Source: Candidatus Omnitrophota bacterium
Lineage (GTDB): Bacteria > Omnitrophota > Gorgyraeia > Zapsychrales > Zapsychraceae
Assembly (NCBI GenBank): GCA_029261055.1
Contig: JAJDCA010000066.1
Coordinates: forward strand, 157-64,156
DNA length: 64,000 bases
Reading direction: 5' to 3'
Under the pieces are notes generated by a model. It was given only the letters and a program-made list of their open reading frames with translations. It was not told where the DNA came from and searched no databases. A program made the translations under genes and the position numbers. Positions 4,329-57,287 of this stretch are shown here, one piece after another (the first letter of the stretch is position 1; every line of letters begins with the position of its first letter).

Positions 4329-5525
4329 ATGATAAAAGCGCTAGCAAAAATAAGTGTTCTCCATGTCGCGACGCTAAATAGACCAATCAGGCAAGACTTG
4401 GGTTATGGTCCTATTGAAACGGTTATTTATAATATTGATAAAGGACTGCATAAATTAGGACAGCGTTCGATTGTTGCTTGTTCCGGTGATTCGTGTGTTG
4501 ACGGTGAACACTACACCACTATTGAAAAAAGTTTTAGTGAATATCACAGTAAAGACACGCGTATGCAGCGAGACAATATGCGTAAACATCTTCTTATGTC
4601 TCTTGAAAGAGCAAAAAAAGGCGACATTGATATTATCCATATGCATGACTCTGCCATGGTTGAATATATTTTTAAAGGAATTTTTAAAAGTCCTGTTCCT
4701 ATTGTGATGACGCTTCATGTTCCTGCCGAAGATAAAGGATCATTTCAACGTTGGAATGAATCGCTGCTTGCTTCTTCTGCCGCATATTTTGTTCCCATCA
4801 GTGAATATCAGAAAAAACAACATCAGGGCTTAGTCAACGCACAGAAGGTTATTCATCACGGTGTTGATGTGGCAGACTATCCGTACAAAAGTAATATTCG
4901 GAAATACGATTATTTGTTTTCAATCGGAAGAATCACCCAGGATAAAGGGCAGGATAAAGCTATTAAGATTGCAAAAAAAACAGGTTCGCGGCTTATCCTT
5001 GCCGGGAATATTCAGAACAAAGCAAAAGACCGGGCATTCTTTAAGGAATTGGAAAAATCAATTGACCTTGTGACGGACGTAAGCAAACCTTGTGCCCCGG
5101 ACGAGTATTATGAAAAAGTCATGAAACCCATTTTAGACTCAGACAATCAGATTATCTATATCGGCGAAGTTACTAGTGAGCAAAAGAAGTTGTGGTACAG
5201 TCACGCCCGAGCGACACTCTTTACTATTCAATGGGGCGAACCTTTTGGGCTTGTTTTGATAGAATCTATGGCTTGCGGAACCCCAGTGCTCGCATTCAAT
5301 AAAGGCTCGGTTCCCGAAATTGTTGTTCATGGTAAAACAGGATTTGTTGAGGACTCAATGGATGGCATGATTGAGGCTGTTAGGTCAATTCAGCTTATAA
5401 AATCCAAGGATTGTCGTAATCACATTAAAAATAATTTTTCAATTACGAGTATGGCTGAAAAATATTCCAAGTTATATCAGCAAATTATGGATGAAAGGAC
5501 GTCATGCCTAAAGATATCCCAGTAA
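4329..5525 (+). CDS. glycosyltransferase family 4 (GT-B, group 1)
   Basis: 398 aa. C-terminal EPFGLVLIESMACGTPVLAFNKGSVPEIVVHGKTGFV is the GT4 retaining-transferase signature. Confidence 0.8.
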   Translation: MIKALAKISVLHVATLNRPIRQDLGYGPIETVIYNIDKGLHKLGQRSIVACSGDSCVDGEHYTTIEKSFSEYHSKDTRMQRDNMRKHLLMSLERAKKGDIDIIHMHDSAMVEYIFKGIFKSPVPIVMTLHVPAEDKGSFQRWNESLLASSAAYFVPISEYQKKQHQGLVNAQKVIHHGVDVADYPYKSNIRKYDYLFSIGRITQDKGQDKAIKIAKKTGSRLILAGNIQNKAKDRAFFKELEKSIDLVTDVSKPCAPDEYYEKVMKPILDSDNQIIYIGEVTSEQKKLWYSHARATLFTIQWGEPFGLVLIESMACGTPVLAFNKGSVPEIVVHGKTGFVEDSMDGMIEAVRSIQLIKSKDCRNHIKNNFSITSMAEKYSKLYQQIMDERTSCLKISQ

Positions 5526-7465
5526 GCAACGGATCATTTCTTTTAAATTTTGATTCGGATTATCAAATTCGGGATATTTATTTCCCTTTTATTGGTCAGG
5601 AAAATCATTCCAGTGGACGTCCTTTTATTTTTGGTGTCTGGGTAGACGGGCATTATTCGAAAATGGGGCCGGATTGGACAAAAGATTTAAGATATCATAA
5701 CAATAGTCTTGTAACAGATGTCTTTTTAAAAAATGAAGTTTTAGGGCTGGAGTTGCGATGTTCAGATGTAGTAGATATGGATTTGAATATATATATTAAG
5801 AAAATTGAAGTGATCAATCTCAAAGATGAAGATCGTCAAGTTCGACTTTTTTTTAGTCATGAATTTAATCTTTATGGTAATGGCATTGGAGGGACGGCTT
5901 ATTTTGATCCTCGAACGTGTTCGATTATTCACTACAAAGTCCATCGATATTTTTTGATCAGCTGTTGGGCGCATGATAAATGGGGTGTACAGCATTTTGC
6001 TTGTGGAAGAAGAGAAGCTTCAGGAGAATTGGAAACACTCAAAGAAGCAGAAAATGGAGAGCTTATTGGAGATGCCTGTGCATGGGGATCACCGCATTCT
6101 ACCATTGGTATTTGGTTGGACGTGCCTGCGAAGGGAACAACAGATGCTTATTATTGGATGGCAGCGGGTACGACGTATTCAGATGTTGCAAACCTTAATT
6201 TACAAGTTCATGAAAAAACACCAGAAAAGCTCATCAGTCGTTCATCAAAATATTGGAGAACTTGGGTTCATAAGGATTCATTACAGCTTGAAAGTTTGCC
6301 TGATTCCGTAACACATATTTTTAATCGAAGTTTGCTTATATTACGGACACAAATTGATAACGGTGGAGCTATTATAGCGGCCAATGATTCAGACATTATT
6401 CGTTTTGGAAAAGACACTTATTCGTATATGTGGGGGCGTGATGGTGCTTTTGTTGCCGCTGCCTTAGCAAAGGCCGGTTATTCGCATGCGTGTATGAAAT
6501 ATTTTGATTTTTGTGCGCGCGCTTTAACAGACGAAGGGTATTTATTTCAACATTACAATCCAGATGGTTCTCTTGCGAGTAATTGGCATTCTTGGTTGGT
6601 CGAGGGTAAAGAAGTTCTTCCTATTCAGGAAGACTCGACGGCTTTAACTCTTTGGGCCCTTTGGATTCACTACGAGAGTTTGAAAGATATAGAATTTATT
6701 AGGCCTCTTTACAATAGTCTCATTAGAAAAGCTGCAGATTTTTTAGTCAGTTATCTAGATCCTCAGACAATGTTGCCGTTACCTTCCTATGATTTATGGG
6801 AAGAGCGTTATGCACTGCATACTTATACCGTTGCTTCCGTGATTGCCGGATTAAGAGCGGCTTCGAATTTTGCAAAAATATTTGAAGATGCTTCTTTGGC
6901 GCAAGAGTATGACTCTGTTGCCGAAGAAATGACGGAAGGGATCAAGAAACATCTTTACCATGATGGCTTAAAGCGATATGCCCGTTCGGGCTCCAGAATA
7001 GAAGGAGGGTATAAGCTTAATGAAGTCATTGATATCAGTTTATTAAGCTTGGCAACTCTTGGAGTTTTGGATCCTAAAGATCCACGCATGGTTGAAACAG
7101 CTAACGCTGTACGTGAACAATTGTGGCTTAAAACTTCTGTTGAAGGTTGCGCCAGATATCAGGGGGATGTTTACCAACGTGCGGAAGATAGTCCCAAAGA
7201 TATTCCTGGGAATCCATGGTTTATTTCAACATTATGGCTGGCAGAATATTTTATTGATCAGGCAGAGAATCAAGAACAGCTTCAAGAAACCCTTCCTTAT
7301 CTTGAATGGTGCGGAAAAAATGCACTTCCTTCCGGCGTGCTTGCTGAACAGGTGCATCCTGTGAGTGGCGCACCTCTTTGTGTCTCACCTCTTACGTGGA
7401 GCCATTCGGCTTTTGTTTGGACTGTTCTAAGATACACCGAGAAACACAAAACACTTAAGAAATAG
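5504..7465 (+). CDS. glycoside hydrolase family 15 (glucoamylase / trehalase-like)
   Basis: 653 aa. N-terminal beta-sandwich domain plus (alpha/alpha)6 catalytic domain with WEERYALHTYTVASVIAGL and W..SHSAF motifs characteristic of GH15. Overlaps the GT4 stop by 22 nt, so the two are probably co-transcribed. Confidence 0.75.
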   Translation: MPKDIPVSNGSFLLNFDSDYQIRDIYFPFIGQENHSSGRPFIFGVWVDGHYSKMGPDWTKDLRYHNNSLVTDVFLKNEVLGLELRCSDVVDMDLNIYIKKIEVINLKDEDRQVRLFFSHEFNLYGNGIGGTAYFDPRTCSIIHYKVHRYFLISCWAHDKWGVQHFACGRREASGELETLKEAENGELIGDACAWGSPHSTIGIWLDVPAKGTTDAYYWMAAGTTYSDVANLNLQVHEKTPEKLISRSSKYWRTWVHKDSLQLESLPDSVTHIFNRSLLILRTQIDNGGAIIAANDSDIIRFGKDTYSYMWGRDGAFVAAALAKAGYSHACMKYFDFCARALTDEGYLFQHYNPDGSLASNWHSWLVEGKEVLPIQEDSTALTLWALWIHYESLKDIEFIRPLYNSLIRKAADFLVSYLDPQTMLPLPSYDLWEERYALHTYTVASVIAGLRAASNFAKIFEDASLAQEYDSVAEEMTEGIKKHLYHDGLKRYARSGSRIEGGYKLNEVIDISLLSLATLGVLDPKDPRMVETANAVREQLWLKTSVEGCARYQGDVYQRAEDSPKDIPGNPWFISTLWLAEYFIDQAENQEQLQETLPYLEWCGKNALPSGVLAEQVHPVSGAPLCVSPLTWSHSAFVWTVLRYTEKHKTLKK

Positions 7466-13989: not shown

Positions 13990-16900
13990 ATGCATATTTA
14001 CACAACAAAAAAACGATCAAATTTAATGTATCGAATCCTCTCAGCATTTATTGCAATAGTATTTTTAAGCACCACTATTGTGCCGCGAGGGTATACCCAA
14101 ACAGTGGTTTTACCAACAGCCACTATACTTAATTTACCTGTGCCGGGTACGATGGTAGGCATAACCGAAGGTTTTACACCTGCGATTATCAAAGGAATGA
14201 CGATTCATCCGGATAATCCTTTGGAATTTGATTTTATTGTGGGCCGCGGTGATAAAAATTTACAAGGAGATGATTTAAAAAAAGAAGGCATCAAAATAAT
14301 CAAATATTTTCTGGCTGCACTGACAACTCCTAAAGAGGACATGTGGGTAAACCTTTCCCCGTATGAAAAGAATCGTATTATTGCCGAAGGATTCGGACAA
14401 ACTGAAATGGGAGGAGATCTTTTATCTCAAGACTATCTTTTAAAACAGCTGACATCGTCATTAATGTATCCGGAAGATGAATTAGGCGGTGATTTTTGGG
14501 AAAAAGTGCATAAAAAAGCCTATGAACAGTTCGGAACAACCGATATTCCCATGAATACTTTTAATAAAATCTGGATTGTTCCAGAAAATGCCATGGTATA
14601 TGAGCATGAATCAAGCGCATTCGTAGTAGGCCGGCATTTAAAAGTGATGTTGGAGCAGGATTTTGTAGCTATGGATCATCAAAATTCTGGCATGCAAGGC
14701 ATAAAATTTGAGGTTACGACTGACAATATTGAACGAAAAAGCACGATAACTACGGAATTAATTCGTGAAATCCTTATCCCTGAGATTGAACGCGAGGTCA
14801 ATGAAGGTGAAAACTTTGCCAATTTACGTCAAATTTATAATTCTATGATTTTGGCTACATGGTATAAGCAAAACTTGAAAGAAAGTTTATTAGGACAAGT
14901 ATATATTGATAAAAATAAAATATTAGGCGTCGATGTGGAAGATAAAGATATCAAACATAAAATTTACAATCAATATATCCAGGCATTCAAAAAGGGCGTT
15001 TATAACTATATTAAGGAGGATTATGATTCTGTAACACATCAGGTCATTCCACGAAAATATTTTTCCGGAGGAACTTTATGGGTAAACGAAATTTCAGAAG
15101 TGGATAATTTAGAGGGCATTAACCTTAAACCTAAAATGATTCCTAATAAAACAGATGCTTCAATATTAACAAGTATTGTAGATGCAGGAGATGGTGCGGA
15201 TACGATTTATATTGAAGAAGTGATGAATCAATATGATGGCTCAATGTTAACCGTTCAGAGTGAGCTGGTTAGATTGAGAAATGATTTACCTTTAAATTTT
15301 TCTGGTAATTCGGATGAAATCATGGAAATTAAGAACTGGCCAAAGGTGGAACAGACAGTGAAAAACATCTCTGATGCTACCAAACAACTAATTCTTTTAT
15401 CAACAGTAAAAAATAACCTTTTTCGAGAATCAGTTCAAAAAGAAGTAGGTTTTATTTATGCCATTGCTTATTTCAGACAGCTTCTTCCGAATGATAAAAA
15501 GAAAGTTATAGAGGATTTTAATACATTGGGCCATAAGAATACTGCTGCGTGGTTAATGGAGAATAACAATTTGCATCTTGATGAATTAAAAGCCAAAATT
15601 CAGGACAAATTTGAAATTAATCTTAATCAAGAAACGGTAGAGTATATCAAAATGCATGATGAAACGGTGCGTCGATCAAGGGGGTTACGCTTAGCGGCAG
15701 ATTCTTTGAAAATATCTACCAGTGATCTTGATGTGATTTTCAAAAATCAAAGTTTGCTTGATGTTATTTTGGGATTACGCAAAGGAGCTGTTGTTGAAAT
15801 CCGACAACCTTTAAACAATTTAGAAAAAGTGCTACGACGGCTAAGATTGGCTGAAGGAGAGGCTATTCAATTTGTTCATCTTGGAAAAAATCAATATTAC
15901 GTCTATGAAGAACATCAGCTGAAACGGTTGGCGCAGGACAATGATTTAAATTATGGATTACACAGGAGTGGACTAAACCATTTGATCCAATTGGATATGG
16001 CAAAAAAACAAGGTATATTTTTTGAAGAAGCAAATAAAACAATTAATACAGATGCCCAAAAGAATATACATAGAATAAGCAGTTCCATCACTCTTTCAGA
16101 TACAAATAGAACTATGTATTTTGACGAAAAAGAAAAATTTTGGCGTGCTGATAAAACAGCCTCCCAGATTTTTGAAATTGAAAGAGTGGGAGCAGAACGA
16201 TCATATATTGCAACTATTCAAAGGGCAAAAGGATTTAAAAATGTTTTAGAATCCCAACTTGAAAATTTTTTAATATTTAATGTACAAACCCCAATCACCG
16301 TTATTGATGATTCTAACGAAACTGAACTTGAAATTAATATAAAGACAGTTAAAGAGTTTCAAAAAAAATATCAAATAGAAATTAAACATATAACAAAAAA
16401 AGAATGGGATGAAGAGTATGGATATTATGCAAAATATTTAAAGAAAACTTGGGAACAACAGCTAAATCAAGAAGTTTTACCTAACACTATTAAAGAATTT
16501 CTTTTAGAGACTGAAATTTTGCAAAAAAATATAATTAATGATGAAAAAATAGTCGAAGTCCTGCGTAGTCCAGAATTTTATCATACGTCCGGATTTCGAA
16601 ACAGACAATTTCTGATGGCTGTAGGGGAACCGATTATCCATGGATGGGATGACGATGCCCCTGCACATGTTTACGCGGTGACCGATAAAAAACGCGATCA
16701 ACTTCGCGAAGATGCCTTAAATGACAAAAAACCAATTATGCAGAACATGTTTCAAAAAGTTGGAAAAATGATTAACACAACCATTAAAAGTGAAAAAGCG
16801 TTCTATAAAGAACTCGCTAAGAACGATAATTATGACAACCCTAAAATCAAAGAGATTCTTGACAACTATTTTGGTTATGACCCCCAAGATGATCATAAAG

Positions 16901-18765
16901 GCTTAATTCCTCAAGCAGCAGAAGAAATAATTACATTGGAAAACAAAATGGATGGCATTAATCCTTATTCTGTCCAGAGGTATTCTCCTTTTATGCGAAA
17001 ATTCATTCCAAAACAAGCTCTTAGGATGGGAGACAATTATTCCCATAAACCTAGGATAAGTGATGATAAAGAAAATACATGTTGTATCATTATGCCGGCT
17101 AATCACCTGGGGCATTCCAGACGTGTTGGGCAAAGAATAGGGGATACTAATTTCTTCCTTGGGCAGGTTCCTTATAGGGGATTACTTAATACGCCTACAA
17201 ATAAAAATGAATCAAATGATTTAAAAGATCGCACTACCCATTTTCTGGGGCATGATTTTAATAATGACATCGATACGCAGGCCGGCAAACATTTGGAAGC
17301 TTATATTAATTCAGATGATCATCATATGAAACACATACAGCATACACATCAATCTGTTCTTTTGGTTGAGGGAGCTTTTGGTTTTGCTTCACTTCTTGGG
17401 TATCCTGTTTTTAATCGTAATTCAATGTTTGTGGGCGATTTTCCTCTGCCATCTTTGGGTGGACCGCTGCGTATTGAAGAACCCAAGATGTATCGATGGG
17501 TCGTCGGCCCATTGTTACTTAACACGGTAGCAGCTGCTAATGATAATATTGCAGGCGGACAAAAGCGTCATTTAGAAAATCGATTATATCGCAATTCTTA
17601 CCAAGACCTTACCGAAGTTGTGGGAGGGAACATTGCGGGTGATTTTTACGAAGCGGCCAAAGAGAAATATTACAAAATACTTCCAGAGAAATACAAAAAA
17701 GATTTATGGGGAGATTTATATAATCGACTTATCGTTTTAGCGAATGTTTTTCTTGAAGCTGGGACTGAAGTTAATTTAACAACCAAGCATAAAGAAAAGG
17801 CCTTAGAAGAACGTCAATTGAGAGCCCAATCCATTTCACGATTAGCATTAAAACGAAGCAAGAAAGTTATTAAATTAGAGAAAAATCCAGATGAAAATTT
17901 AAAACAGGAGATAAAAGATATTGATTTAATGATTCTCGACTATGCCGATCATTTTGGTTATTACGCTCCACAAAATACTAAAAATAAAAATTATAATCCG
18001 ATAAATCCTGAAGAAGATTATTTTTATAAAATCAAGGTTGATGGAAATTATTTAAAATGGCAAGCGGTATATCCTGATATGGAAGTCGCTGATCAGAATG
18101 GAGTTTCTTCAGTCAAGAGCAGTGAATGGAAAAATTTGCAAAAAAAATCAGGTGAAACCCGACTAAGTAATTGGGTAAAAGGAGAAACTATTTCTTTAGA
18201 AAATGGCCGGTCCATTCTTTTAGACGAACTGCCAGATAACGATATTGAAATAATTGTACCGGGCTTACGCTCCGACCTTGAAAAAGAATATTTAAAAGAA
18301 GTTCAACAAATTATTATAAAACAGCTTAAAGCCGATGGTAATCAAATGATTATCTGGCCAGATATGGTTGCAGCCGCTAAGCAAAGAAAAAAAGATTCCG
18401 CCATGGCAACAAAAAATGTAAAAAATAACCTTACTTTTAATACAAAACAGACTATAAATGAAGTCGGTGGTATCGATCTTAATCCTGATTTATTAAATTT
18501 ACAAATCAAACGTGATGGAAATGGCGTGCCGTTACCAGTAGCGATGCAGCCTATTGAAAATATGCATATTGAAGGGTTTTTCCCTATTATTATCAATATT
18601 ACACCTGTCAATCTTCCACTTCTTGGTTTTGGAGACACTCTTCCGAAAGAAAACTATCCCAAACCATCACCTGAACTCAGCTTTTGGGAAGAACAAGAGA
18701 GAAAAGCTTTTCTGAGAAGTAAATTAGGTGATAGAAATACACAACTAATACAAGAAAACACCTAA
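13990..18765 (+). CDS. giant secreted protein (1591 aa) with a conserved N-terminal domain of unknown function; paralog of 53880-57287
   Basis: Uninterrupted 4.8-kb ORF with a signal-peptide-like N-terminus (MYRILSAFIAIVFLSTTIV). The first ~350 aa are ~55-60% identical to the N-terminus of the 1135-aa protein at 53880 (LNLPVPGTMV...IKG...DPL.FDF; WVNLSPYE.NRII...GQTEMG.DLL.QDYLLKQLT.SLMYPE.ELG; IPRKYFSGG). The rest is unique and carries no domain I recognise. Confidence 0.7.
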   Translation: MHIYTTKKRSNLMYRILSAFIAIVFLSTTIVPRGYTQTVVLPTATILNLPVPGTMVGITEGFTPAIIKGMTIHPDNPLEFDFIVGRGDKNLQGDDLKKEGIKIIKYFLAALTTPKEDMWVNLSPYEKNRIIAEGFGQTEMGGDLLSQDYLLKQLTSSLMYPEDELGGDFWEKVHKKAYEQFGTTDIPMNTFNKIWIVPENAMVYEHESSAFVVGRHLKVMLEQDFVAMDHQNSGMQGIKFEVTTDNIERKSTITTELIREILIPEIEREVNEGENFANLRQIYNSMILATWYKQNLKESLLGQVYIDKNKILGVDVEDKDIKHKIYNQYIQAFKKGVYNYIKEDYDSVTHQVIPRKYFSGGTLWVNEISEVDNLEGINLKPKMIPNKTDASILTSIVDAGDGADTIYIEEVMNQYDGSMLTVQSELVRLRNDLPLNFSGNSDEIMEIKNWPKVEQTVKNISDATKQLILLSTVKNNLFRESVQKEVGFIYAIAYFRQLLPNDKKKVIEDFNTLGHKNTAAWLMENNNLHLDELKAKIQDKFEINLNQETVEYIKMHDETVRRSRGLRLAADSLKISTSDLDVIFKNQSLLDVILGLRKGAVVEIRQPLNNLEKVLRRLRLAEGEAIQFVHLGKNQYYVYEEHQLKRLAQDNDLNYGLHRSGLNHLIQLDMAKKQGIFFEEANKTINTDAQKNIHRISSSITLSDTNRTMYFDEKEKFWRADKTASQIFEIERVGAERSYIATIQRAKGFKNVLESQLENFLIFNVQTPITVIDDSNETELEINIKTVKEFQKKYQIEIKHITKKEWDEEYGYYAKYLKKTWEQQLNQEVLPNTIKEFLLETEILQKNIINDEKIVEVLRSPEFYHTSGFRNRQFLMAVGEPIIHGWDDDAPAHVYAVTDKKRDQLREDALNDKKPIMQNMFQKVGKMINTTIKSEKAFYKELAKNDNYDNPKIKEILDNYFGYDPQDDHKGLIPQAAEEIITLENKMDGINPYSVQRYSPFMRKFIPKQALRMGDNYSHKPRISDDKENTCCIIMPANHLGHSRRVGQRIGDTNFFLGQVPYRGLLNTPTNKNESNDLKDRTTHFLGHDFNNDIDTQAGKHLEAYINSDDHHMKHIQHTHQSVLLVEGAFGFASLLGYPVFNRNSMFVGDFPLPSLGGPLRIEEPKMYRWVVGPLLLNTVAAANDNIAGGQKRHLENRLYRNSYQDLTEVVGGNIAGDFYEAAKEKYYKILPEKYKKDLWGDLYNRLIVLANVFLEAGTEVNLTTKHKEKALEERQLRAQSISRLALKRSKKVIKLEKNPDENLKQEIKDIDLMILDYADHFGYYAPQNTKNKNYNPINPEEDYFYKIKVDGNYLKWQAVYPDMEVADQNGVSSVKSSEWKNLQKKSGETRLSNWVKGETISLENGRSILLDELPDNDIEIIVPGLRSDLEKEYLKEVQQIIIKQLKADGNQMIIWPDMVAAAKQRKKDSAMATKNVKNNLTFNTKQTINEVGGIDLNPDLLNLQIKRDGNGVPLPVAMQPIENMHIEGFFPIIINITPVNLPLLGFGDTLPKENYPKPSPELSFWEEQERKAFLRSKLGDRNTQLIQENT

Positions 18766-18775
18766 TAAAAAAACA

Positions 18776-18803
18776 TTGACATTTTCTAAAAAAGTGATAT
18801 ATT
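18776..18803 (+). promoter_or_regulatory. sigma70-like promoter (TTGACA, 16-nt spacer, TATATT) for rplM-rpsI
   Basis: Read from sequence. The -35 plus spacer (ttgacattttctaaaaaag) is almost identical to the promoter at 42202. Confidence 0.5.
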
Positions 18804-26403: not shown

Positions 26404-28494
26404 ATGAAAAACTTCATCTATACACTCTTATTTACCCTTAGCATCCTTTTATTTTGCCAAGCTGAGGCAGGTTTCACAAAAGTCACTTCATCAATGGATA
26501 CCAAAAAAACACCTATCCCGGCAGAAGAAATTATTCAAAAACTTATAAATACTTATGCGGTTATGGAAAACTATCAAAGTGAGGCCAAATATATAGGGCA
26601 GTTTGAAATCGATGGACAGATTGTAAAAACTGAAACGACTATGTTGATCAAATTAGGCAAGCCAAACTTATATCACATCAATTGGAAATCTCAGGAGAAC
26701 CAATTTGGCGAAAGCCCAGGAACAATTTGGAACGCCGGGAAAGGAGCATTTAAGTATACCGAATCAACAAATACTTATATCCAAATTTCAGAAATGCCAC
26801 AAGAATCATGTGAGATGAAAAATCAAAAAGAATGGTTGAATATAACAGAGCCATTGTTTGACATTTTCTTTAATTGCAACAATACCTCTTCAAAAATAAC
26901 ACAATTTAGATTAGTAGGAACAGATACGATCAACGGAGAAGACAACTACATCCTCCATCAAACCAATGATTCTTACAAACACACTTTATGGATTTCTAAA
27001 AAAGATTTCTTGATCAATAGGTATAAAAAAGAACCCCTGACAGAAGATTTAAGTATAGATGCCTTATCTGCAAGCCTGATAGATTCTTATGAAGATATGG
27101 GAATTGATCTTACTGAACAGGACAAATCAAAAATAAACAAATTTACGGGAATTTCTTATTTCTCATTAAATACAAGTGAATTTAAAAATATGCACATAGC
27201 ACTAAATTTTTATAATAATTTAATTGATGAAATAAAAGATAATAATGAATTCATATATTCTCTTCCTGAAAATGCTCAACTAAAATCATCTGAAAATATT
27301 ATTCCAAACAAAGAATCTATGCTACGCATACTAAAAAATCTAGATGGATTAAATTATACAATGTTATACACAAAAGGTCTTGAGCTTAGCGAAGAATCCG
27401 TAAGCGACCTCGAGAAAGAATTAGAAAACGATCCTTATAATTTTGAAATACGTTTGCAGATAATAGGGTATTACAGTGCTGATACTGACTCCGAAGAATA
27501 TCGCAGAATTAAAAATAAACACATTCTGTGGATTATTGAAAACCAACCGGATTATAAGGAAGGTAGTAGTATAATCTCTTCCCTATTTTATATTTTTCCT
27601 GACATTAATCCAAATGCCTATGATAAAGCCAAATCATTGTGGTTAAAACAAATTGAACTTCATAAAGATAATCCTGTTGTACTTACGAACGCATCTAAAT
27701 TTTTTTACCTTGTAGACAGTGAACTCTCAAAAGAAATTTTAAATATTGGAAAAAATATTGATCCAGATAATCTTTATTGGGAAGAAAGATTAAAATTCTT
27801 AAATTCATTAAATCCAAAAGATGGTATTCATAAAGAGTATTATGTCAACGGAAAATTAAAATTAGAGACAGAATATAAAGACGGCAAATACAATGGAATA
27901 TATAAAACATATTATGAAAGCGGCTCTTTAAAATTTGATGGAAATGTTAAAAATGGCGTTTATCACGGGATGGGAAAAAAGTATTATGAAAATGGACAAA
28001 TAAGTTTTATCGGGAATTTCAAAGAAGGAGCAAATGATGGTCTGTATAAATTTTTTCATGAAAGTGGTGAATTAATGCACACGTGTACGCAACAATTTAA
28101 AAAAGAAGGATTTACCCGAAAAGACTGCCAACAATATTCTTCAACAGGTGAAATAGAAAAAGAATATTATGCATTAATTTATAAACAGGATAAAGGTACT
28201 ACTCTGGAAAAAATATTTACAAACGATCATCTGTCTATTGAAAAAATCTATGATGAAAATGGGACTATTATAAAAGAAAAAGCATATACTAACGATGGGA
28301 AGCTAAAAGATGGCATTAATTATAACTACTATGATACTGGTAAAGTTCATTATGCACTAAATTACAAAAAGGGGATAAGAAAAGGTGTTAGTAAAGAGTA
28401 TTATGAAAACGGCAGCTTAAAAAAAGAAGTATCTTACACAAAGACGGCAAAAGAATTGGAATTTACAAAGAATTTTATGAAACTGGGGAAATAA
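26404..28494 (+). CDS. secreted MORN-variant (YwqK-like) repeat protein; apparent frameshift near 28436, with the repeat array continuing in another frame to 28583
   Basis: 696 aa. Signal peptide and a C-terminal array of YYENG.LK.E..YK.GK..G repeats. After the annotated stop, the +1 frame reads KDGKRIGIYKEFYETGEIKEEWSYKEGELIRKKKY...*, i.e. two further perfect MORN-variant repeats. Confidence 0.7.
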   Translation: MKNFIYTLLFTLSILLFCQAEAGFTKVTSSMDTKKTPIPAEEIIQKLINTYAVMENYQSEAKYIGQFEIDGQIVKTETTMLIKLGKPNLYHINWKSQENQFGESPGTIWNAGKGAFKYTESTNTYIQISEMPQESCEMKNQKEWLNITEPLFDIFFNCNNTSSKITQFRLVGTDTINGEDNYILHQTNDSYKHTLWISKKDFLINRYKKEPLTEDLSIDALSASLIDSYEDMGIDLTEQDKSKINKFTGISYFSLNTSEFKNMHIALNFYNNLIDEIKDNNEFIYSLPENAQLKSSENIIPNKESMLRILKNLDGLNYTMLYTKGLELSEESVSDLEKELENDPYNFEIRLQIIGYYSADTDSEEYRRIKNKHILWIIENQPDYKEGSSIISSLFYIFPDINPNAYDKAKSLWLKQIELHKDNPVVLTNASKFFYLVDSELSKEILNIGKNIDPDNLYWEERLKFLNSLNPKDGIHKEYYVNGKLKLETEYKDGKYNGIYKTYYESGSLKFDGNVKNGVYHGMGKKYYENGQISFIGNFKEGANDGLYKFFHESGELMHTCTQQFKKEGFTRKDCQQYSSTGEIEKEYYALIYKQDKGTTLEKIFTNDHLSIEKIYDENGTIIKEKAYTNDGKLKDGINYNYYDTGKVHYALNYKKGIRKGVSKEYYENGSLKKEVSYTKTAKELEFTKNFMKLGK

Positions 28495-39128: not shown

Positions 39129-40406
39129 ATGTGCCTGGGCCGTCTTGAAATAATGAAGAGATATACTATGTTTAATCGTCCAATAAAATCAATTGTTATT
39201 TTTCTTACCCTATTCAACATTCTCTGCATGTGGAACTTAAAATCAGGCTATGCGGAGAAAAGCAAAGAAGGCATCATCAAAGAATTTTATCCTGATGGAT
39301 CCTTAGAGACTCAACGACACTATAAAGCCAATAAACTTAATGGAAAAAGTCAAACATTTTACAATAACGGCCAATTAATGAGTGAAGCAACCTACAAAGA
39401 TGATATCCTTAATGATACTTACAAAACTTTTTATGAAAATGGTAAAACATATTTTATTAAAAGATTTAACAAAGGAATTCAAGATGGTGAAGCTAAAGAA
39501 TATTATGAAAATGGCCAATTAAAAAGTGAAGAAACTTACGTCAACGACAAACTACAAGGTTTAAGTAAATATTATTTTGATGATGGTCAACTTAAATATT
39601 TTATGAATTTTAAAAAGGGCCAGTTAGAAGGAATCAGTAAAGAATACTACCAGAATGGAAAAATAAAAAGCACTGTTACCTATAAAGATGGGAAGTGGCA
39701 TGGATTAGTAAAAGAACACGAGGAAACCGGACATTTAATAGCTGAATGGGAATATCTCAATGGGAAAAGAAACGGTATTTCCAAAATCTTTTATCCTGAT
39801 GGTAAATTAAAATGGAAAGCAAATTTCAAAAATGATGAAATGAATGGCCCCAGTCTTGCCTTTGCCAAAAACGGCCAACAAATCATGGAAACAAATTTTA
39901 ACCAAAATAAATTGCATGGGCTCGTTACAGAAAACTATTCAGATGGAACATTAAAACGTGTTTCTCATTATAAAAATGACTTAAAAAATGGCCTTACAAA
40001 AGAATACTTTGAAAATGGCACATTAAGCCTCGAACGACATTATAAAGAGGCTAGAGAAGTAGGCGTTTCAAAAGAATATTATGAGGATGGAAGCCTCTGG
40101 ATTACAAGAACCTACTTAAATGAAAATAACGATGGAACATTGCGAGAATATTACGAAACAGGTGAATTAAAACAACAATGGATCATAAAAAACGGCCTCA
40201 TTCATGATATCAGTAAGTCCTACTACAAAATTGGCAAATTAATGACCGAAGAATACTATTTTGAAGGAAAGAAAAATGGTATCAGCCGTCTATACCGCCA
40301 AAATGGATCAATCGTCTATGAAGATACATACATGGATGGCGCCAGAATAAACCGAAAAATGTTTGATGAAAACGGAAAAATAATACAACCCGCCGATAAA
40401 AACTAA
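39129..40406 (+). CDS. secreted MORN-variant (YwqK-like) repeat protein
   Basis: 425 aa. Hydrophobic N-terminus, then about 14 repeats of the YYENGQLK.E..Y...K.G form. The start may instead be 39144. Confidence 0.7.
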   Translation: MCLGRLEIMKRYTMFNRPIKSIVIFLTLFNILCMWNLKSGYAEKSKEGIIKEFYPDGSLETQRHYKANKLNGKSQTFYNNGQLMSEATYKDDILNDTYKTFYENGKTYFIKRFNKGIQDGEAKEYYENGQLKSEETYVNDKLQGLSKYYFDDGQLKYFMNFKKGQLEGISKEYYQNGKIKSTVTYKDGKWHGLVKEHEETGHLIAEWEYLNGKRNGISKIFYPDGKLKWKANFKNDEMNGPSLAFAKNGQQIMETNFNQNKLHGLVTENYSDGTLKRVSHYKNDLKNGLTKEYFENGTLSLERHYKEAREVGVSKEYYEDGSLWITRTYLNENNDGTLREYYETGELKQQWIIKNGLIHDISKSYYKIGKLMTEEYYFEGKKNGISRLYRQNGSIVYEDTYMDGARINRKMFDENGKIIQPADKN

Positions 40407-48925: not shown

Positions 48926-49510
48926 ATGAAAAGTAAAAACGTTTATATTATTGCTGGATCAAACGGTTCTGGGAAGACAACTTTTGCCAAAACGTTTTTA
49001 CCCGAGTACGCCAAGTGTATTCGATTTATCAATGCGGATTTGATTGCGGCAGGATTATCACCCTTTTTGCCTCAACAAGTCGCCATCAAATCAGGCAAAC
49101 TTGTCTTGGAACAAATCAAGGAATATGCAGAAGCTGGTATCGATTTTTGTTTTGAAACAACCATGTCCGGAACAACTTATCTGAAATATTTTAAAATGTT
49201 GAAAGAAAAAGGCTACAAAATACATATTTTCTTTTTATGGATTCCAAGTGCGCAATTAGCGATGATCCGCATTAAAGACCGTGTCGCTCAGGGAGGGCAT
49301 GATGTTCCTGTGAAAGATATAAAACGTCGCTTTGAACGTAGCCTTAACAAATTCTTCACTGAATACCGTTTATTAACTGATAAATGGATTTTATTTGATA
49401 ACGCCGAAGCCACACCAAAAATTATCGCTAAAAAATCTAATGCTCATATCGATATTATTAATGCCGATAAATTTAAAAAGATTACAAAAAAAATTGGAAT
49501 AACATTATGA
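48926..49510 (+). CDS. zeta-toxin-like P-loop kinase (Zeta_toxin/AAA_33 family)
   Basis: 194 aa. Walker A IIAGSNGSGKTTFAK, Walker B-like DFCFETT and the overall zeta/PezT-like layout. Confidence 0.7.
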   Translation: MKSKNVYIIAGSNGSGKTTFAKTFLPEYAKCIRFINADLIAAGLSPFLPQQVAIKSGKLVLEQIKEYAEAGIDFCFETTMSGTTYLKYFKMLKEKGYKIHIFFLWIPSAQLAMIRIKDRVAQGGHDVPVKDIKRRFERSLNKFFTEYRLLTDKWILFDNAEATPKIIAKKSNAHIDIINADKFKKITKKIGITL

Positions 49511-53879: not shown

Positions 53880-56800
53880 ATGAAATTACAATTTTCATTA
53901 AAATCTCAAATTATTAGTAACTTTGTCATTTTGACATTTGTATCTAGCTTGATTCTCCCTCCATCCAAGGTACAAGCCCAGACAGCACCTGCATTAACAA
54001 AAAGCGGATTAAATCTTCCTGTTCCCGGGACAATGGTACCATTGAGTGAATCATTTTTTCCTGTGGTGATAAAAGGAATAAAGGTATTTCCAGAGGATCC
54101 GCTAAAATTTGATTTTATTATGAATATGCCTGAGTCTGAATTAGAAGGCGCTGATTTAGAAAATAAAGCATTTAAACTTGTGAAATACTTTTTAGCTTCA
54201 CTCACCGTTCCTGAGAAAGATTTATGGGTTAACCTCTCTCCTTACGAAGAAAATCGTATCATTCCTGAGCAACTTGGACAAACAGAAATGGGTCGTGATT
54301 TGTTGGCACAGGATTATTTGCTAAAACAATTGACGGCATCTTTGATGTATCCGGAGGAGGAACTAGGAGAAGAATTTTGGGATCGAATATATAAAGAATC
54401 TTATGAAAAATTCGGAACAACGGATGTTCCGATAAATACATTTCATAAAGTTTGGATTATTCCTGATAAAGCGGTTGTCCATGAACAAGGAACAACTGCT
54501 TTTGTAACGGAAAGTTATTTAAAGGTAATGTTAGAAAAAGATTATTTAGCTTCCCAAAAAGGCACAAAAACCGCCCCTTCATCACAAGAAAAAGATGATT
54601 TAGAATCAAAAATTATTAAAGAGGTTATCATTCCTGCCATTGAAGAAGAAGTTAACTATGGAAAGAATTTCATTCTATTACGGCAAATTTATCATTCTTT
54701 GATTCTTGCTAAATGGTTTAAAACACGCATGAAGAGTACTTTATTAGGGAAAAATTATGCAGACAAAAGTAAAATCGTTGGCATTGAATTGGAAGATAAA
54801 GACATTTCAGAAAAAATTTATCAACAGTATGTCGAATCTTTTAAAGTAGGGGTATATGATCTAATTCGGGAAGAATATGATCCCATGACAGAGTCTATTA
54901 TTCCGAGAAAATATTTTTCCGGAGGGCTTGTTTTGGAAACACCACTTGTTATTCAAAATATCAATGGTGTAAGTATGGCCATGCTTGTGAATGATTCATT
55001 TAGTAAAGTAGCTTCCTTTACTGTAAGAATTAATCCTATTTCCTCTGGTGATAAATCAATGAGTTCGGCGGCAGATGATCTTCTTGTAAAAATAAAGCGT
55101 CGGGTTAAAAGCGAGAGCTTTACTATTATTGATGAGCCTCTAGAAGAGCTAAAAGGTCTTATTGGAAATGACAGTAAAGCTGCGAGTCAATACAAAGAAG
55201 CCGTTATTACTTTTGCCGATGGGCTACTTGAAAAGATAAAAGATCTTTCTAATCGCGAAAAATTTAATATTATTGACGGATATCTGGAACAACTAAAAGA
55301 ACTTAGTGAGGAACACACATATGTTGTCGATCAATTCAAAGAAGCCGTTATTGCTTTTGCAGATGGCTTAGTTAAAAAGATAAAAAGACTTTCTGATGAA
55401 AAGAAATTTAATATTATTGACGGATATCTGAACCAACTAAAAGAGCTTAGTGAGGAATATACATATGTTGTCGATCAATATGAAACAGCAAATTTTTATT
55501 ATCAAGAGTCTTTGCCGAGGGATAATTTATCCGGAGTTGATGAAGAAATTTATAAAAGGACTACCGAAATTAGAAAAAATCTAAATAGGGGCAATTTTAA
55601 AAAAGTGCAGGAACTTCATATAGAGAACATAGACACTGTGAAAAAACTTTCCAATCCAGAAAAAGAAGAAAAATATGGTAGACTTATCGTTAAAACATTT
55701 CTAGAAGGTCAGATAGATTCGATGAACAGAGAACAAAATTATGGAGATTTCTTTACATTAGTACAAAATGAGAGGTTTGAAGAAAATCTAAAGAATTTTG
55801 GGCATTTGCAATCAATCACGACACATAAAACTCTACAAGAAATGTATACGGATATGCTGAGAAAAAAAGCATTATTTATGAAAAACAAATTTAAGGCTCT
55901 TCCTGATGAAGAAAAATTTAGTGTTAATATAAAGAAAGAGGGCATCAGCTTTAATGATAATATTGCTGCCATAGTAGCGATTTTTTCTATAAATCAAAAG
56001 GATACAGTGATAGGGAAACATTTGATAGAAATGTTTGAGACCTACTCTGCGAGTTTATTAAGGGTATTAGAAAATGAATGGGGAAAAAATAAAAAACCCT
56101 CTTTTAAATTGATTTATACATCAGAAAAAATCCTGGAAGCTATGAAAGAAATTACAAATATTGTCCAGCTGCATGACGGACTCACGGAAAATCTTAAAAC
56201 AGCAACTTCAACATACCAGACGGCTTTAGAAAACGCCGGAATATCAGATTCCATAAGAAAGAAATTGTTAAATTTTGCAATATACTTTTTGCAAACAATT
56301 TACAACGCCAGAAGTTATGATGCAAATAAATTATTTTCTTCTTTGAAGGAAGATCCCGAGCTTCTTCAATACCCCCATTTGGAAAACGTTTATGCTGAAG
56401 GATTCTCATATTTATTTTCTGTATTCAAAGAAAATAGATTATTCTCGAGTTGGGAGAGCCTGTCTTCCGGTTGGAATATTCACCTTTTTGATTATTTGAA
56501 AACATTTTTACTGGAGAGAAATGGTGAATTTACGTTAATCAAAAAAGTTTATGAGACAAATCTAGGAGAATATGCGGTTAATTTTTCTCGAGCAATTCAG
56601 AATCAACTTGATAAAGATACAGATTGGGATGGAAGAATGACTACTCCTATTTCTGCGGTCTTAAACTCAGAACCAGTAAATATTCCAAGCGCATCAAACA
56701 TACTCTTTAAATTTTGGGAGTTCTTAGTGGATTATCCTGTTGAAAGTGTAGAGGATGTTTATGTAGAAACATTAGAAAATATTTTTAATGCAATAGAAAG

Positions 56801-57287
56801 GAATTATTCTTCAAATATTTTTGAATCGGTAAGAGAAGATTTTATGAAAACTATTCGTAGAAGATTAAATGATGCCGATCCGAATACATTTGTAAAAATA
56901 AGAGAATTTCTTGCTCATCAAGAAACTAATCCTCATAAAAATCGTCAAATAGACGCAGTTGAAAACACGCCTATAGCTTTCCCATCATTAAACCCATGGG
57001 GGCAGATTCCACGTAGAATAGTTATTTCTAATAATAGTGATGGGAGTTTTACAATTATGTTCTCTGATCTGAGTATGCTTAATAATAAAACAATATCGAC
57101 TAAAGGGGGGATTGATTTGGTTGATACAAAGATAGATATTCGGCAAGATAATGCGTTTGAACGGTTTAATAACGAAAATGTATTATTAGATTCTGCCTCA
57201 TTTGTAGGGGGGTCCTTTGATATTAATGGTGTAACCATGATTCCTAATGTTTCAGCTTATCTTAATCCTAACCCACTATCGTATTAA
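53880..57287 (+). CDS. giant secreted protein (1135 aa); paralog of 13990-18765 through the shared N-terminal ~350-aa domain
   Basis: Signal-peptide-like N-terminus ending ...VQAQT. The N-terminal domain aligns along its length with giant protein 1. The central region has an internal ~60-aa duplication (..KESFTIIDEPLEELKGL.. / ..REKFNIIDGYLEQLKELSEEHTYVVDQFKEAVIAFADGL.. x2). Confidence 0.7.
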   Translation: MKLQFSLKSQIISNFVILTFVSSLILPPSKVQAQTAPALTKSGLNLPVPGTMVPLSESFFPVVIKGIKVFPEDPLKFDFIMNMPESELEGADLENKAFKLVKYFLASLTVPEKDLWVNLSPYEENRIIPEQLGQTEMGRDLLAQDYLLKQLTASLMYPEEELGEEFWDRIYKESYEKFGTTDVPINTFHKVWIIPDKAVVHEQGTTAFVTESYLKVMLEKDYLASQKGTKTAPSSQEKDDLESKIIKEVIIPAIEEEVNYGKNFILLRQIYHSLILAKWFKTRMKSTLLGKNYADKSKIVGIELEDKDISEKIYQQYVESFKVGVYDLIREEYDPMTESIIPRKYFSGGLVLETPLVIQNINGVSMAMLVNDSFSKVASFTVRINPISSGDKSMSSAADDLLVKIKRRVKSESFTIIDEPLEELKGLIGNDSKAASQYKEAVITFADGLLEKIKDLSNREKFNIIDGYLEQLKELSEEHTYVVDQFKEAVIAFADGLVKKIKRLSDEKKFNIIDGYLNQLKELSEEYTYVVDQYETANFYYQESLPRDNLSGVDEEIYKRTTEIRKNLNRGNFKKVQELHIENIDTVKKLSNPEKEEKYGRLIVKTFLEGQIDSMNREQNYGDFFTLVQNERFEENLKNFGHLQSITTHKTLQEMYTDMLRKKALFMKNKFKALPDEEKFSVNIKKEGISFNDNIAAIVAIFSINQKDTVIGKHLIEMFETYSASLLRVLENEWGKNKKPSFKLIYTSEKILEAMKEITNIVQLHDGLTENLKTATSTYQTALENAGISDSIRKKLLNFAIYFLQTIYNARSYDANKLFSSLKEDPELLQYPHLENVYAEGFSYLFSVFKENRLFSSWESLSSGWNIHLFDYLKTFLLERNGEFTLIKKVYETNLGEYAVNFSRAIQNQLDKDTDWDGRMTTPISAVLNSEPVNIPSASNILFKFWEFLVDYPVESVEDVYVETLENIFNAIERNYSSNIFESVREDFMKTIRRRLNDADPNTFVKIREFLAHQETNPHKNRQIDAVENTPIAFPSLNPWGQIPRRIVISNNSDGSFTIMFSDLSMLNNKTISTKGGIDLVDTKIDIRQDNAFERFNNENVLLDSASFVGGSFDINGVTMIPNVSAYLNPNPLSY

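What the first reader, a model, noticed from the sequence alone, without database searches (positions are those of the whole stretch)
13990..18765. Giant secreted protein 1 (1591 aa) carrying an unrecognised N-terminal domain shared with a second giant protein 40 kb away
Two very large, signal-peptide-bearing ORFs (13990-18765 and 53880-57287) share a ~350-aa N-terminal module (LNLPVPGTMV / DPL.FDF / WVNLSPYE.NRII / GQTEMG.DLL.QDYLLKQLT.SLMYPE.ELG / IPRKYFSGG) at roughly 55-60% identity, then diverge into unrelated C-terminal regions of 1200 and 800 aa. A conserved delivery or anchoring domain fused to variable payloads is the architecture of polymorphic toxins, adhesins and effectors. Neither the N-terminal module nor the C-terminal regions match any domain I can name. 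Giant protein 1 sits alone between the gcv operon and rplM, and has an operator-like palindrome 33 nt upstream of its start.
Basis: seen in the sequence. Interest (0 to 1): 0.8.

Follow-up and report, generated by a model that had tools for sequence, protein, structure and literature searches.

The report
Capped exported enzyme-carrier protein family
Giant protein 1 belongs to a very large, undescribed Omnitrophota protein family in which a conserved signal-peptide-bearing N-terminal domain and a conserved 60-residue C-terminal cap enclose an exchangeable enzyme; here the enzyme is a nucleotide-sugar enzyme of the GT75 type, not a toxin or adhesin.

Summary
ORFs 13990-18765 (1591 aa, p1) and 53880-57287 (1135 aa, p2) share a signal peptide plus a ~320-aa N-terminal domain (50-56% identity, E 5e-124) and then diverge.

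It is strong in p1 (aa 1490-1549) and degenerate in p2.

The middle "cargo" varies. Where recognisable, it is cytoplasmic-type sugar metabolism (PGI, PGK, PGM, UDP-glucose pyrophosphorylase, TIM, FBPase), not toxins.

My best reading is that the caps are a shared sorting or anchoring device for Sec-exported enzyme cargo. The side of the membrane on which the cargo acts is unresolved. The polymorphic-toxin reading is not supported.

The parts
13990..18765 (+). p1, 1591-aa capped protein (whole ORF including stop)
   Evidence: RBS GGAG 9 nt upstream
13990..14097 (+). p1 signal-peptide-like N-terminus (aa 1-36: KKR...R n-region, 16-aa uncharged h-region, family cleavage position x-x-A|Q is G-Y-T|Q here)
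   Evidence: Highest hydropathy of the protein. Across the family, 138/150 have A-[Q/S] after position 18; where it occurs it lies about 8 aa before the domain, and the -3 residue is small or aliphatic (S/V/G/A/L/T) in 121 of the 138.
14128..15072 (+). p1 N-cap domain (aa 47-361, LNLPVPG ... KYFSGG)
15247..18399 (+). p1 cargo module (aa ~420-1470): helical domain, GT75-like core, coiled coil and beta-sandwich
   Evidence: 30 homologs at E<=1e-30, the best aligning across the module. 48 invariant columns. AF2 pLDDT 81.4, pTM 0.82.
16192..17640 (+). GT75-like catalytic core inside the cargo (aa ~735-1217; DDS 772-774, HxSGxRN 865-871, invariant DDD 887-889, QRY 996-998, QH 1117-1118, REEP 1161-1165)
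18457..18636 (+). p1 C-cap (aa 1490-1549: GGIDLNPDLLNLQIKRDGNGVPLPVAMQPIENMHIEGFFPIIINITPVNLPLLG)
   Evidence: HMM E 2e-31. 55-80% identical to the C-termini of over 1500 cluster representatives.
18637..18762 (+). p1 variable tail after the C-cap (42 aa)
   Evidence: Family members have 2-77 aa after the cap.
53880..57287 (+). p2, 1135-aa paralog (whole ORF including stop)
53880..53978 (+). p2 signal peptide (aa 1-33, V-Q-A|Q)
54009..54926 (+). p2 N-cap domain (aa 44-349)
54927..57104 (+). p2 cargo (aa 350-1075). The sequence looks helical and repeat-rich to my eye; no prediction was run. It includes a 144-nt tandem duplication at 55187-55480.
   Evidence: No homolog by word-index search and none in the fetched loci. 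Tandem repeat. No Pfam hit above threshold.
57105..57284 (+). p2 degenerate C-cap (aa 1076-1135, GGIDLVDTKIDIRQDN...INGVTMIPNVSAYLNP)
   Evidence: No HMM hit. Local alignment z 5.9 and 4.5 against the caps of P0031 and P0068, 0 and 1 of 500 shuffles.

Best explanation
p1 is a precursor with a Sec-type signal peptide. It is followed by a conserved ~315-aa N-cap domain, a linker, an exchangeable cargo and a conserved ~60-aa C-cap with a short tail. It is one of two members in this window of an Omnitrophota-wide family of 'capped' proteins. I read the constant parts (signal peptide, N-cap, C-cap) as a common export and sorting or anchoring device. It would bring different enzyme cargos to one shared location in the cell envelope or beyond, while the cargo supplies the activity. 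In p1 the cargo is a ~1050-aa enzyme module whose core has the fold and DDD metal motif of GT75 enzymes (Mn2+-dependent NDP-pyranose/furanose mutases that autoglycosylate an arginine). p1 would therefore bind a nucleotide sugar and either isomerise it or prime or transfer a glycosyl residue. Cargos of other family members (PGI, PGM, UDP-glucose pyrophosphorylase, PGK, TIM, FBPase) are the steps that feed hexose phosphates into nucleotide sugars. The family as a whole looks like a co-localised sugar-activation pathway. Shown: the family, the two caps, the signal-peptide features, the cargo repertoire and the GT75-like fold. Inferred: export, the sorting or anchoring role of the caps, contact between N-cap and C-cap, and the enzymatic reaction.
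For: N-cap family: 1054 hits at 50-66% identity, nearly all labelled Candidatus Omnitrophota/Omnitrophica. There are 79 genomic loci with 4-6 or more paralogs per MAG, and members range from 750 to over 2400 aa.

C-cap: 1752 hits at E<=1e-3 in the search with p1 aa 392-1591. Apart from some 40-50 that match the cargo, the 150 listed hit only p1 aa ~1486-1556, at 55-80% identity and at the protein C-terminus. 39 of 43 complete genomic members have the cap within 2-77 aa of the stop. 41 proteins in the fetched sets carry both caps. Where a C-cap ORF lacks the N-cap, the one case examined has an N-cap ORF 36 nt upstream.

Signal peptide: median 3.5 K/R in the n-region and a 16-aa uncharged h-region. 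138 of 150 have A-[Q/S]; the -3 residue is small or aliphatic in 121 of those 138. No other strongly hydrophobic segment exists outside folded regions.

Cargo survey of 43 members: UDPGP 5, PGM/PMM 4, PGK 3, plus PGI, TIM, FBPase, transketolase and others. Full examples are L008 and L012 (N-cap + UDPGP + PGK + C-cap) and L020 (N-cap + UDPGP + PGM + C-cap), and L001 (N-cap + PGI + PGM + C-cap).

In the model of p1 with the cargo deleted, the first 18 residues of the C-cap are beta-strands with pLDDT 77-82 although flanked by disorder. This suggests they pack on the N-cap.
Against: The recognisable cargos, GT75-type enzymes included, use ATP, UTP or NDP-sugars, and as far as I know they work in the cytoplasm. 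That is hard to square with Sec export. Homologs of the p1 cargo module occur both behind ordinary signal peptides (P0121, P0126, P0129, P0135) and behind N-termini that to my eye lack a signal peptide and resemble group-1/GT4 glycosyltransferases (P0125, P0134; not scanned). No dedicated signal-peptide or topology predictor was available. p1 itself has T, not A, at the -1 position. No partner gene (sortase-like enzyme, transporter) is linked to either gene. p1 does not match Pfam at all, so it is not a sequence-level member of the RGP family. Foldseek against PDB gave no significant hit. Equivalence of catalytic residues was not tested.
Confidence: 0.4

Rival explanations
1. Membrane-tethered cytoplasmic metabolon. 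The N-terminal hydrophobic helix is an uncleaved anchor or peripheral tether. The caps mediate assembly on the cytoplasmic face, and the enzyme cargos work in the cytoplasm on their normal substrates.
For: Cargos are cytoplasmic-type enzymes with high-scoring, apparently intact domains (PGI E 3e-198, PGK E 1e-107). GT75 enzymes use NDP-sugars. Omnitrophota long multi-enzyme proteins are reported as overwhelmingly membrane-associated, with TM helices interspersed among enzyme domains (bioRxiv 10.64898/2026.06.07.730766). Some homologs of the p1 cargo module have N-termini that appear to lack a signal peptide.
Against: Positive charges precede the helix, which by the positive-inside rule places the body outside. 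92% of members have an A-[Q/S] site in the expected position. Only one hydrophobic segment is present, so no re-entry is possible.
Confidence: 0.25
2. Host- or prey-directed effectors. The capped proteins are exported and delivered into or onto a host cell, where nucleotide sugars and ATP are available. This would resemble secreted GT-A effectors, or the glycogen-metabolism enzymes that Chlamydia secretes.
For: The signal peptide. A phylum with proposed host-dependent or predatory lifestyles (PMC10066038; bioRxiv 10.1101/2023.11.21.568195). A precedent in Chlamydia, to my knowledge a PVC-group relative, for secreted sugar-polymer enzymes (PMC4829429, PMC3722199). Weak Foldseek hits include the toxin glucosyltransferases Lgt1 and YeGT.
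Confidence: 0.15
3. Polyprotein precursors. The caps act as pro-domain or chaperone elements, and the cargo is released by proteolysis at linker motifs.
For: The SSP motif is enriched 5-fold in family proteins (95 observed vs 17.8 +/- 4.0 in shuffles) and is followed by V/I/L in 81%. In L001 it sits before PGI, between PGI and PGM, and before the C-cap. Proteolytic processing has been suggested for Omnitrophota giant proteins (bioRxiv 10.1101/2023.11.21.568195).
Against: p1 and p2 contain no SSP motif, and 44 of 75 family proteins lack it. The N-cap has no conserved His or Cys and no peptidase match. The motif may simply be a linker.
Confidence: 0.08
4. Polymorphic toxin or adhesin with a conserved delivery domain and variable payload.
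For: A conserved N-terminal module with many different downstream regions. Large size and a signal peptide.
Against: No toxin, adhesin, RHS, filamentous-haemagglutinin, RTX or Ig-like domains in 43 surveyed cargos. The variable part is internal and capped. There is no immunity gene. PADLOC and PHROGs give nothing. N-cap identity is barely higher for pairs with the same cargo (62% vs 56%), and p1 is closer to members of other genomes (67%) than to p2 (56%). The diversification is therefore old, not ongoing tip-swapping.
Confidence: 0.04
5. Assembly chimera or mis-called ORF.
For: The family is repetitive, and many database members are truncated at contig ends.
Against: The ORF is uninterrupted with an RBS. 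GC is even, 0.34-0.35 across the gene. The N-cap / cargo / C-cap order is the family norm in independent assemblies.
Confidence: 0.01

Closest known systems
Glycosyltransferase family 75 (reversibly glycosylated polypeptides / UDP-arabinopyranose mutases; bacterial MtdL)
   Different: 9-15% identity and no Pfam hit of any kind. The core sits inside a ~1050-aa module with a ~330-aa helical domain before it, a ~60-aa helical insert after the DDD motif, and a coiled coil plus beta-sandwich after it. It is preceded by a signal peptide, whereas plant GT75 enzymes are cytosolic. Equivalents of the autoglycosylated Arg and the Mn2+-binding His are not established.
Multi-enzyme 'metabolic cluster' long proteins of Omnitrophota (Nielsen & Lui 2026 preprint; West-Roberts et al. 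2023 preprint)
   Same: Same phylum. Same content of sugar-metabolism domains (PGM/PMM, glycosyltransferases, nucleotidyl transferases). A signal peptide or TM helices in most. The p1 cargo module recurs inside such proteins (P0122, P0125, P0128).
   Different: Those papers treat proteins of 10,000 aa or more. In the sections and term searches I read, they do not describe the N-cap or the C-cap. p1 and p2 are 1.1-1.6 kaa with a single N-terminal hydrophobic segment.
C-terminal sorting domains (T9SS CTD, LPXTG, PEP-CTERM) combined with an N-terminal signal peptide
   Same: A signal peptide at one end and a short, highly conserved, family-independent domain at the other end of otherwise unrelated proteins. 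Lineage-restricted and present many times per genome.
   Different: No sequence match to any such model in Pfam or NCBIfam. The C-cap is followed by a variable 2-77-aa tail rather than a TM helix plus basic tail. It is coupled to a 315-aa N-terminal domain. No candidate sorting enzyme has been identified.
LapA-type type-1-secreted adhesins (N-terminal retention module + giant variable region + C-terminal secretion signal)
   Same: Conserved modules at both ends enclose a large variable middle. The end modules serve localisation rather than function (from my own knowledge of the family).
   Different: No RTX repeats. The LapA type lacks a Sec signal peptide. The cargo here is enzymes rather than Ig-like repeats. 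No T1SS genes are adjacent.
Polymorphic toxin systems (CdiA, Rhs, MafB)
   Same: A conserved N-terminal part with many alternative downstream regions.
   Different: The variable part is not the C-terminal tip. No toxin or immunity pair and no associated secretion system.

Membership tests
Omnitrophota 'capped' protein family (unnamed; defined here) | N-cap domain (LNLPxPG ... WVNLSPYE ... TEMGxDLLxQDYxLKQ ... KYFSGG) directly after a signal peptide | tested here: met
   p1 and p2 both have it. 50-67% identity to family members.
Omnitrophota 'capped' protein family (unnamed; defined here) | C-cap (GGIDLNPxLLxLQIKRDGxGxPLP...IxGFxPVIINxxP...LLG) within about 80 aa of the C-terminus | tested here: met
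   p1: HMM E 2e-31 at aa 1490-1549. p2: no HMM hit, only a weak pairwise resemblance to a second subtype, so p2 is inconclusive on this feature.
GT75 / RGP / NDP-pyranose mutase | [quoted passage not shown] | tested here: met
GT75 / RGP / NDP-pyranose mutase | Conserved DDD metal-binding motif | tested here: met
   D887-D888-D889 are invariant in the p1 and homolog alignments. The motif is described in PMC9937993.
GT75 / RGP / NDP-pyranose mutase | Sequence membership (Pfam RGP model or PDB sequence similarity) | tested here: not met
   No Pfam family at E<=1 for p1. The profile of the module finds no PDB sequence at E<=0.1. Homologs give only one weak Glycos_transf_2 hit.
GT75 / RGP / NDP-pyranose mutase | Autoglycosylated arginine and Mn2+-coordinating histidine at equivalent positions | not testable with these tools
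   Invariant R997, H1118, R1143, R1161 and R1193 exist, but no residue-level superposition was available.
Sec signal peptide (SPase I type) | Basic n-region, 10-20-aa hydrophobic h-region, small residues at -3 and -1 | tested here: inconclusive
   The manual analysis fits for the family and for p2 (V-Q-A|Q). p1 has G-Y-T|Q. No SignalP or DeepTMHMM was available.
Polymorphic toxin systems | Recognisable toxin domain at the extreme C-terminus plus an adjacent immunity gene | tested here: not met
   The C-terminus is the conserved cap. The next genes are rplM (p1) and a small ORF with no Pfam hit (p2). No toxin domains in 43 cargos.
T9SS / LPXTG / PEP-CTERM sorting signals | Match to the curated C-terminal domain models | tested here: not met
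   No NCBIfam or Pfam hit at E<=1.
RTX / T1SS adhesins | RTX nonapeptide repeats, no Sec signal, linked ABC/MFP/TolC genes | tested here: not met
   No RTX hit. A signal peptide is present. No such genes in the window.

The most novel reading that the evidence does not exclude
The signal peptide, N-cap and C-cap form a previously unknown, phylum-specific protein-sorting or display system. It would move a whole set of normally cytoplasmic sugar-phosphate and nucleotide-sugar enzymes (PGI, PGM, UDP-glucose pyrophosphorylase, PGK, TIM, FBPase, the GT75-like enzyme of p1) out of the cytoplasm to one shared extracytoplasmic place: the periplasm, the cell surface or a host or prey cell. The two caps would clasp together or bind a common receptor. 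That would be an exported metabolic pathway, something like a bacterial counterpart of targeting glycolytic enzymes to an organelle.
Probability: 0.2. Interest if true: 0.85.

Novelty: new variant of a known kind. Interest (0 to 1): 0.6.

Why it matters
Omnitrophota are uncultured, ultra-small and probably host-dependent bacteria. Their many long multi-enzyme proteins are unexplained. A pair of very strongly conserved end-caps, shared by thousands of otherwise unrelated proteins, gives a concrete sequence handle on that problem. The caps can be used to list the whole cargo set of any genome. They can be used to search for the machinery that recognises them. They also allow a direct test, by proteomics or localisation, of whether these organisms really export glycolytic and nucleotide-sugar enzymes. 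For p1, the GT75-like fold gives a testable biochemical activity in a protein that every sequence library leaves blank.

Tried and rejected
- Pfam, NCBIfam, PADLOC and PHROGs on p1 and p2 gave nothing usable.
- Word-index homolog searches with the p1 and p2 regions downstream of the N-cap found nothing. For p1 the exhaustive HMMER search showed this to be a false negative, so the p2 negative is weak.
- Profile searches of the cargo module and of the caps against PDB sequences found nothing.
- The idea that the start of the N-cap (LNLPVPGTMV..GFTPAIIKG) and the C-cap (GVPLPVAM..GFFPIIINI) are repeats of one element was rejected. hhalign aligns only 9 residues, with probability 2.3%.
It was replaced by one with only p1 deleted and full-length homologs.
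- The apparent fusion of an N-cap to ribosomal protein S9 (P0001) is a weak Pfam hit on a 2.4-kb scaffold with no synteny to the window. It was dropped.
- A C-terminal '...S-x-L-N' end motif occurs in only 15 of 80 members and not in p1.
- No relatives were found on viral contigs, with limited patterns.
- The upstream palindrome was not found.
- The literature searches and the papers I read turned up no description of the caps.
Full report
**Observation.** BLASTP aligns p1 aa 7-379 with p2 aa 2-366 at 50% identity and 75% positives, E 5e-124. Restricted to the domain, identity is 55.6%. tblastn finds no third copy in the window. Pfam gives no family for p1 at E<=1 and only sub-threshold noise for p2. 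NCBIfam gives nothing for either.

The gene context is as described. gcvT, gcvH, gcvPA, gcvPB and an lplA-like ligase lie upstream of p1, and rplM, rpsI and argC lie downstream. The rest of the window is ordinary chromosome: xseA, arginine biosynthesis, guaB, guaA, dnaE, mscS. The claimed palindrome 33 nt upstream of p1 was not found. The nearest inverted repeats are imperfect and AT-rich, and promoter-like sites are not more frequent than in shuffles. A strong promoter-like site (11 of 12 matches) lies between p1 and rplM, so rplM probably has its own promoter.

**The N-terminal module is a family.** A search with p1 aa 1-380 returned 1054 proteins at E<=1e-3. The best 120 are 51-66% identical. 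Nearly all of those that carry a name are hypothetical proteins of Candidatus Omnitrophota/Omnitrophica MAGs, several of them from the same MAG. A scan of one genome per species found 86 relatives in 79 loci, again in Omnitrophota-type MAGs, with four to six loci from single MAGs and frequent tandem pairs.

Reading the ORFs in these loci shows that complete members are 750 to over 2300 aa and that many run off the 6-kb flank. p1 is closer to members in other genomes (up to 67%) than to p2 (56%), so the two window copies are old paralogs. No relative was found on viral contigs.

**A second conserved element.** Many family members end with GGIDLNPxLLDLQIKRDGNGVPLP...IEGFxPVIINITP...LLG, followed by a short variable tail. 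p1 has this cap at aa 1490-1549. An exhaustive HMMER search with p1 aa 392-1591 against 1.84 billion representatives gave 1752 hits at E<=1e-3. About 40-50 of the listed hits match the cargo. The other listed hits match only this ~65-aa stretch, at 55-80% identity and at the C-terminus of proteins of up to 4341 aa.

An HMM of the cap detects it in 39 of 43 complete genomic members, always 2-77 aa from the stop, and in p1 (E 2e-31) but not in p2. The last 66 residues of p2 (GGIDLVDTKIDIRQDN...INGVTMIPNVSAYLNP) align with a second cap subtype with z 5.9 and 4.5 against shuffles. I therefore call the p2 cap degenerate.

Among the proteins fetched, 41 carry both caps. The one long 'C-cap only' protein I followed up (P0195) lies 36 nt downstream of an ORF that carries the N-cap. 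L001 is a capped gene broken by a frame change. N-cap and C-cap therefore belong together.

**The N-terminus.** In 150 N-terminally complete members, the n-region has a median of 3.5 Lys/Arg and the uncharged h-region a median of 16 residues. 138 members have A-[Q/S] after position 18. Where it occurs, it lies about 8 residues before the domain, and the -3 residue is small or aliphatic in 121 of the 138. That is the pattern of a Sec signal peptide cut by signal peptidase I. p2 fits (V-Q-A|Q). p1 has G-Y-T|Q at that place. In both proteins the N-terminal segment is the only strongly hydrophobic stretch outside folded regions. No dedicated predictor was available, so export is an inference.

**What the caps are.** Neither cap matches Pfam, NCBIfam, PADLOC, PHROGs or PDB sequences. 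I modelled p1 with its cargo deleted (aa 1-395 joined to 1466-1591), using full-length homologs that carry both caps as the alignment. The model is moderate, with mean pLDDT 61.5. The N-cap core is an alpha/beta domain with block pLDDT of about 55-94.

The confident C-cap hairpin suggests that it packs on the N-cap. I could not inspect coordinates or PAE, so this remains a suggestion. The resemblance between the start of the N-cap and the C-cap is limited to a GFxPxII motif and is not significant.

**What lies between the caps.** A Pfam survey of the middle regions of 43 complete members found these families:
- UDP-glucose pyrophosphorylase (5 members)
- PGM/PMM (4)
- PGK (3)
- HEAT repeats (3)
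- single cases of PGI, TIM, two kinds of FBPase, transketolase, a histidine phosphatase, CofD, GGDEF, ankyrin repeats and others

Worked examples are L008 and L012 (N-cap, UDPGP, PGK, C-cap), L020 (N-cap, UDPGP, PGM domains I-IV, C-cap) and L001 (N-cap, PGI, PGM, C-cap). Most cargos are unrelated to each other: 34 of 45 are singletons by BLAST. No toxin or adhesin domain was seen.

The recognisable enzymes are the steps that interconvert triose and hexose phosphates and activate glucose. This matches the 'sugar metabolism module' reported for much longer Omnitrophota proteins (bioRxiv 10.64898/2026.06.07.730766). In the parts I read, that preprint and the two other Omnitrophota papers I consulted do not mention the caps.

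**The cargo of p1.** Thirty proteins match at E<=1e-30, and the best of them align with p1 aa ~420-1470 at about 30% identity. They are 850-3000-aa proteins. Reading their sequences, the module appears joined to glycosyltransferases, nucleotidyl transferases, PGM, a GalT-like domain, pyruvate kinase and others; I did not scan these with Pfam. Three of them also end with a C-cap.

The alignment has 48 invariant columns. These include I-F-N and D-D-S after a beta-strand, H-x-S-G-x-R-N, D887-D888-D889, Q-R-Y 996-998, Q-H 1117-1118, N-R 1142-1143 and R-x-E-E-P 1161-1165. Pfam sees nothing except one weak Glycos_transf_2 hit in a homolog.

MtdL and the plant mutases form glycosyltransferase family 75. 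They are Mn2+-dependent enzymes with a GT-A domain, a family-specific core and a helix domain, and a conserved DDD motif. They autoglycosylate an arginine and interconvert NDP-pyranose and NDP-furanose (PMC9937993).

The p1 core thus has the GT75 fold and the DDD motif but is not a sequence-level member. It is embedded in a larger module with a helical domain in front and a coiled coil and beta-sandwich behind. I infer a nucleotide-sugar-binding, metal-dependent enzyme. The reaction itself is not established.

**The cargo of p2.** No homolog was found by the word-index search or in the fetched loci, but the same method also missed the p1 homologs. To my eye the sequence is helical and repeat-rich, though no prediction was run. 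It contains a recent 144-nt tandem duplication. Its nature is open.

**Interpretation.** The constant parts (signal peptide, N-cap, C-cap) are far better conserved than the cargos and carry no catalytic signature. They enclose unrelated cargos in thousands of proteins of one phylum. That is the behaviour of a localisation or assembly device, and I take this as the best explanation (confidence 0.4).

The unresolved contradiction is topology. The N-terminus looks like a cleavable signal peptide, yet the cargos use ATP, UTP and NDP-sugars. Homologs of the p1 module occur both behind ordinary signal peptides and behind N-termini that appear to lack one.

The rivals are:
- a membrane-tethered cytoplasmic metabolon (0.25)
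- delivery to a host or prey cell, for which Chlamydia's secreted glycogen enzymes are a precedent (PMC4829429) (0.15)
- polyprotein processing, prompted by a five-fold enrichment of SSP[V/I/L] at domain junctions in other members, though the motif is absent from p1 and p2 (0.08)
- the polymorphic toxin or adhesin reading (0.04)
- an assembly artefact (0.01)

**Verdict.** The toxin/adhesin interpretation is not supported. p1 is a typical member of a large, apparently undescribed Omnitrophota family of capped, signal-peptide-bearing enzyme carriers, and its own cargo is a GT75-like nucleotide-sugar enzyme module. The caps have no detectable relative in sequence or fold.

Noticed in passing
window 58182-64000 (runs off the end): A third very long ORF (at least 1939 aa). 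It has its own signal peptide (MKIKYLAVACLLLVAF) and a GCVEQ thioester motif, so it looks like a bacterial alpha-2-macroglobulin. It has no N-cap. The ORF listing does not show it because it runs off the window.
   Followed up: partly
L001:1939-7952; family proteins in L002-L080: The motif (S/A)SSP(V/I/L) is enriched 5-fold in capped proteins of other genomes (95 observed vs 17.8 +/- 4.0 in shuffles). In L001 it sits at domain junctions. It could be a linker or a processing site. It is absent from p1 and p2.
   Followed up: partly
L001:3837-3840 and L081:2741-2778: Capped genes occur in split form. In L001 a frame change lies inside PGI. In L081 a stop codon lies 36 nt before a second ORF that carries the C-cap. 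These could be sequencing errors, pseudogenes or real two-gene versions.
   Followed up: partly
P0121, P0126, P0129, P0135 vs P0125, P0134: Homologs of the p1 cargo module start either with ordinary signal peptides (and no N-cap) or with N-termini that appear to lack a signal peptide and resemble group-1/GT4 glycosyltransferases (not scanned). This is a topology puzzle for an NDP-sugar enzyme.
   Followed up: no
window 55187-55480: A 144-nt tandem duplication (2.0 copies, 86% matches) inside the p2 cargo, giving 48-aa repeats.
   Followed up: partly
window 18776-18803: A near-consensus sigma-70-like promoter (TTGACA-16-TATATT with an extended-10 TG) lies between the p1 stop and rplM.
   Followed up: no
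window 26404-28494 and 39129-40406: Two MORN-repeat proteins. The first sits in a low-GC stretch (0.317) and also gives a DUF2092 periplasmic-domain hit.
   Followed up: no
window 48926-49510 and 57723-58121: A zeta-toxin-like kinase gene after dnaE. Just after p2 lies a 132-aa ORF with no Pfam hit that I suspected from its sequence might be PIN-like.
   Followed up: no
C-termini of family proteins: 15 of 80 capped proteins end in an acidic stretch followed by S-x-[L/F/I]-N at the very C-terminus (for example EEVSALN, VSSLN). This is a possible sub-signal and is not present in p1 or p2.
   Followed up: partly
window 4329-7465: A GT4 glycosyltransferase and a GH15 glucoamylase-like gene lie next to each other. 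They are stand-alone sugar-polymer genes in the same region as the capped proteins.
   Followed up: no
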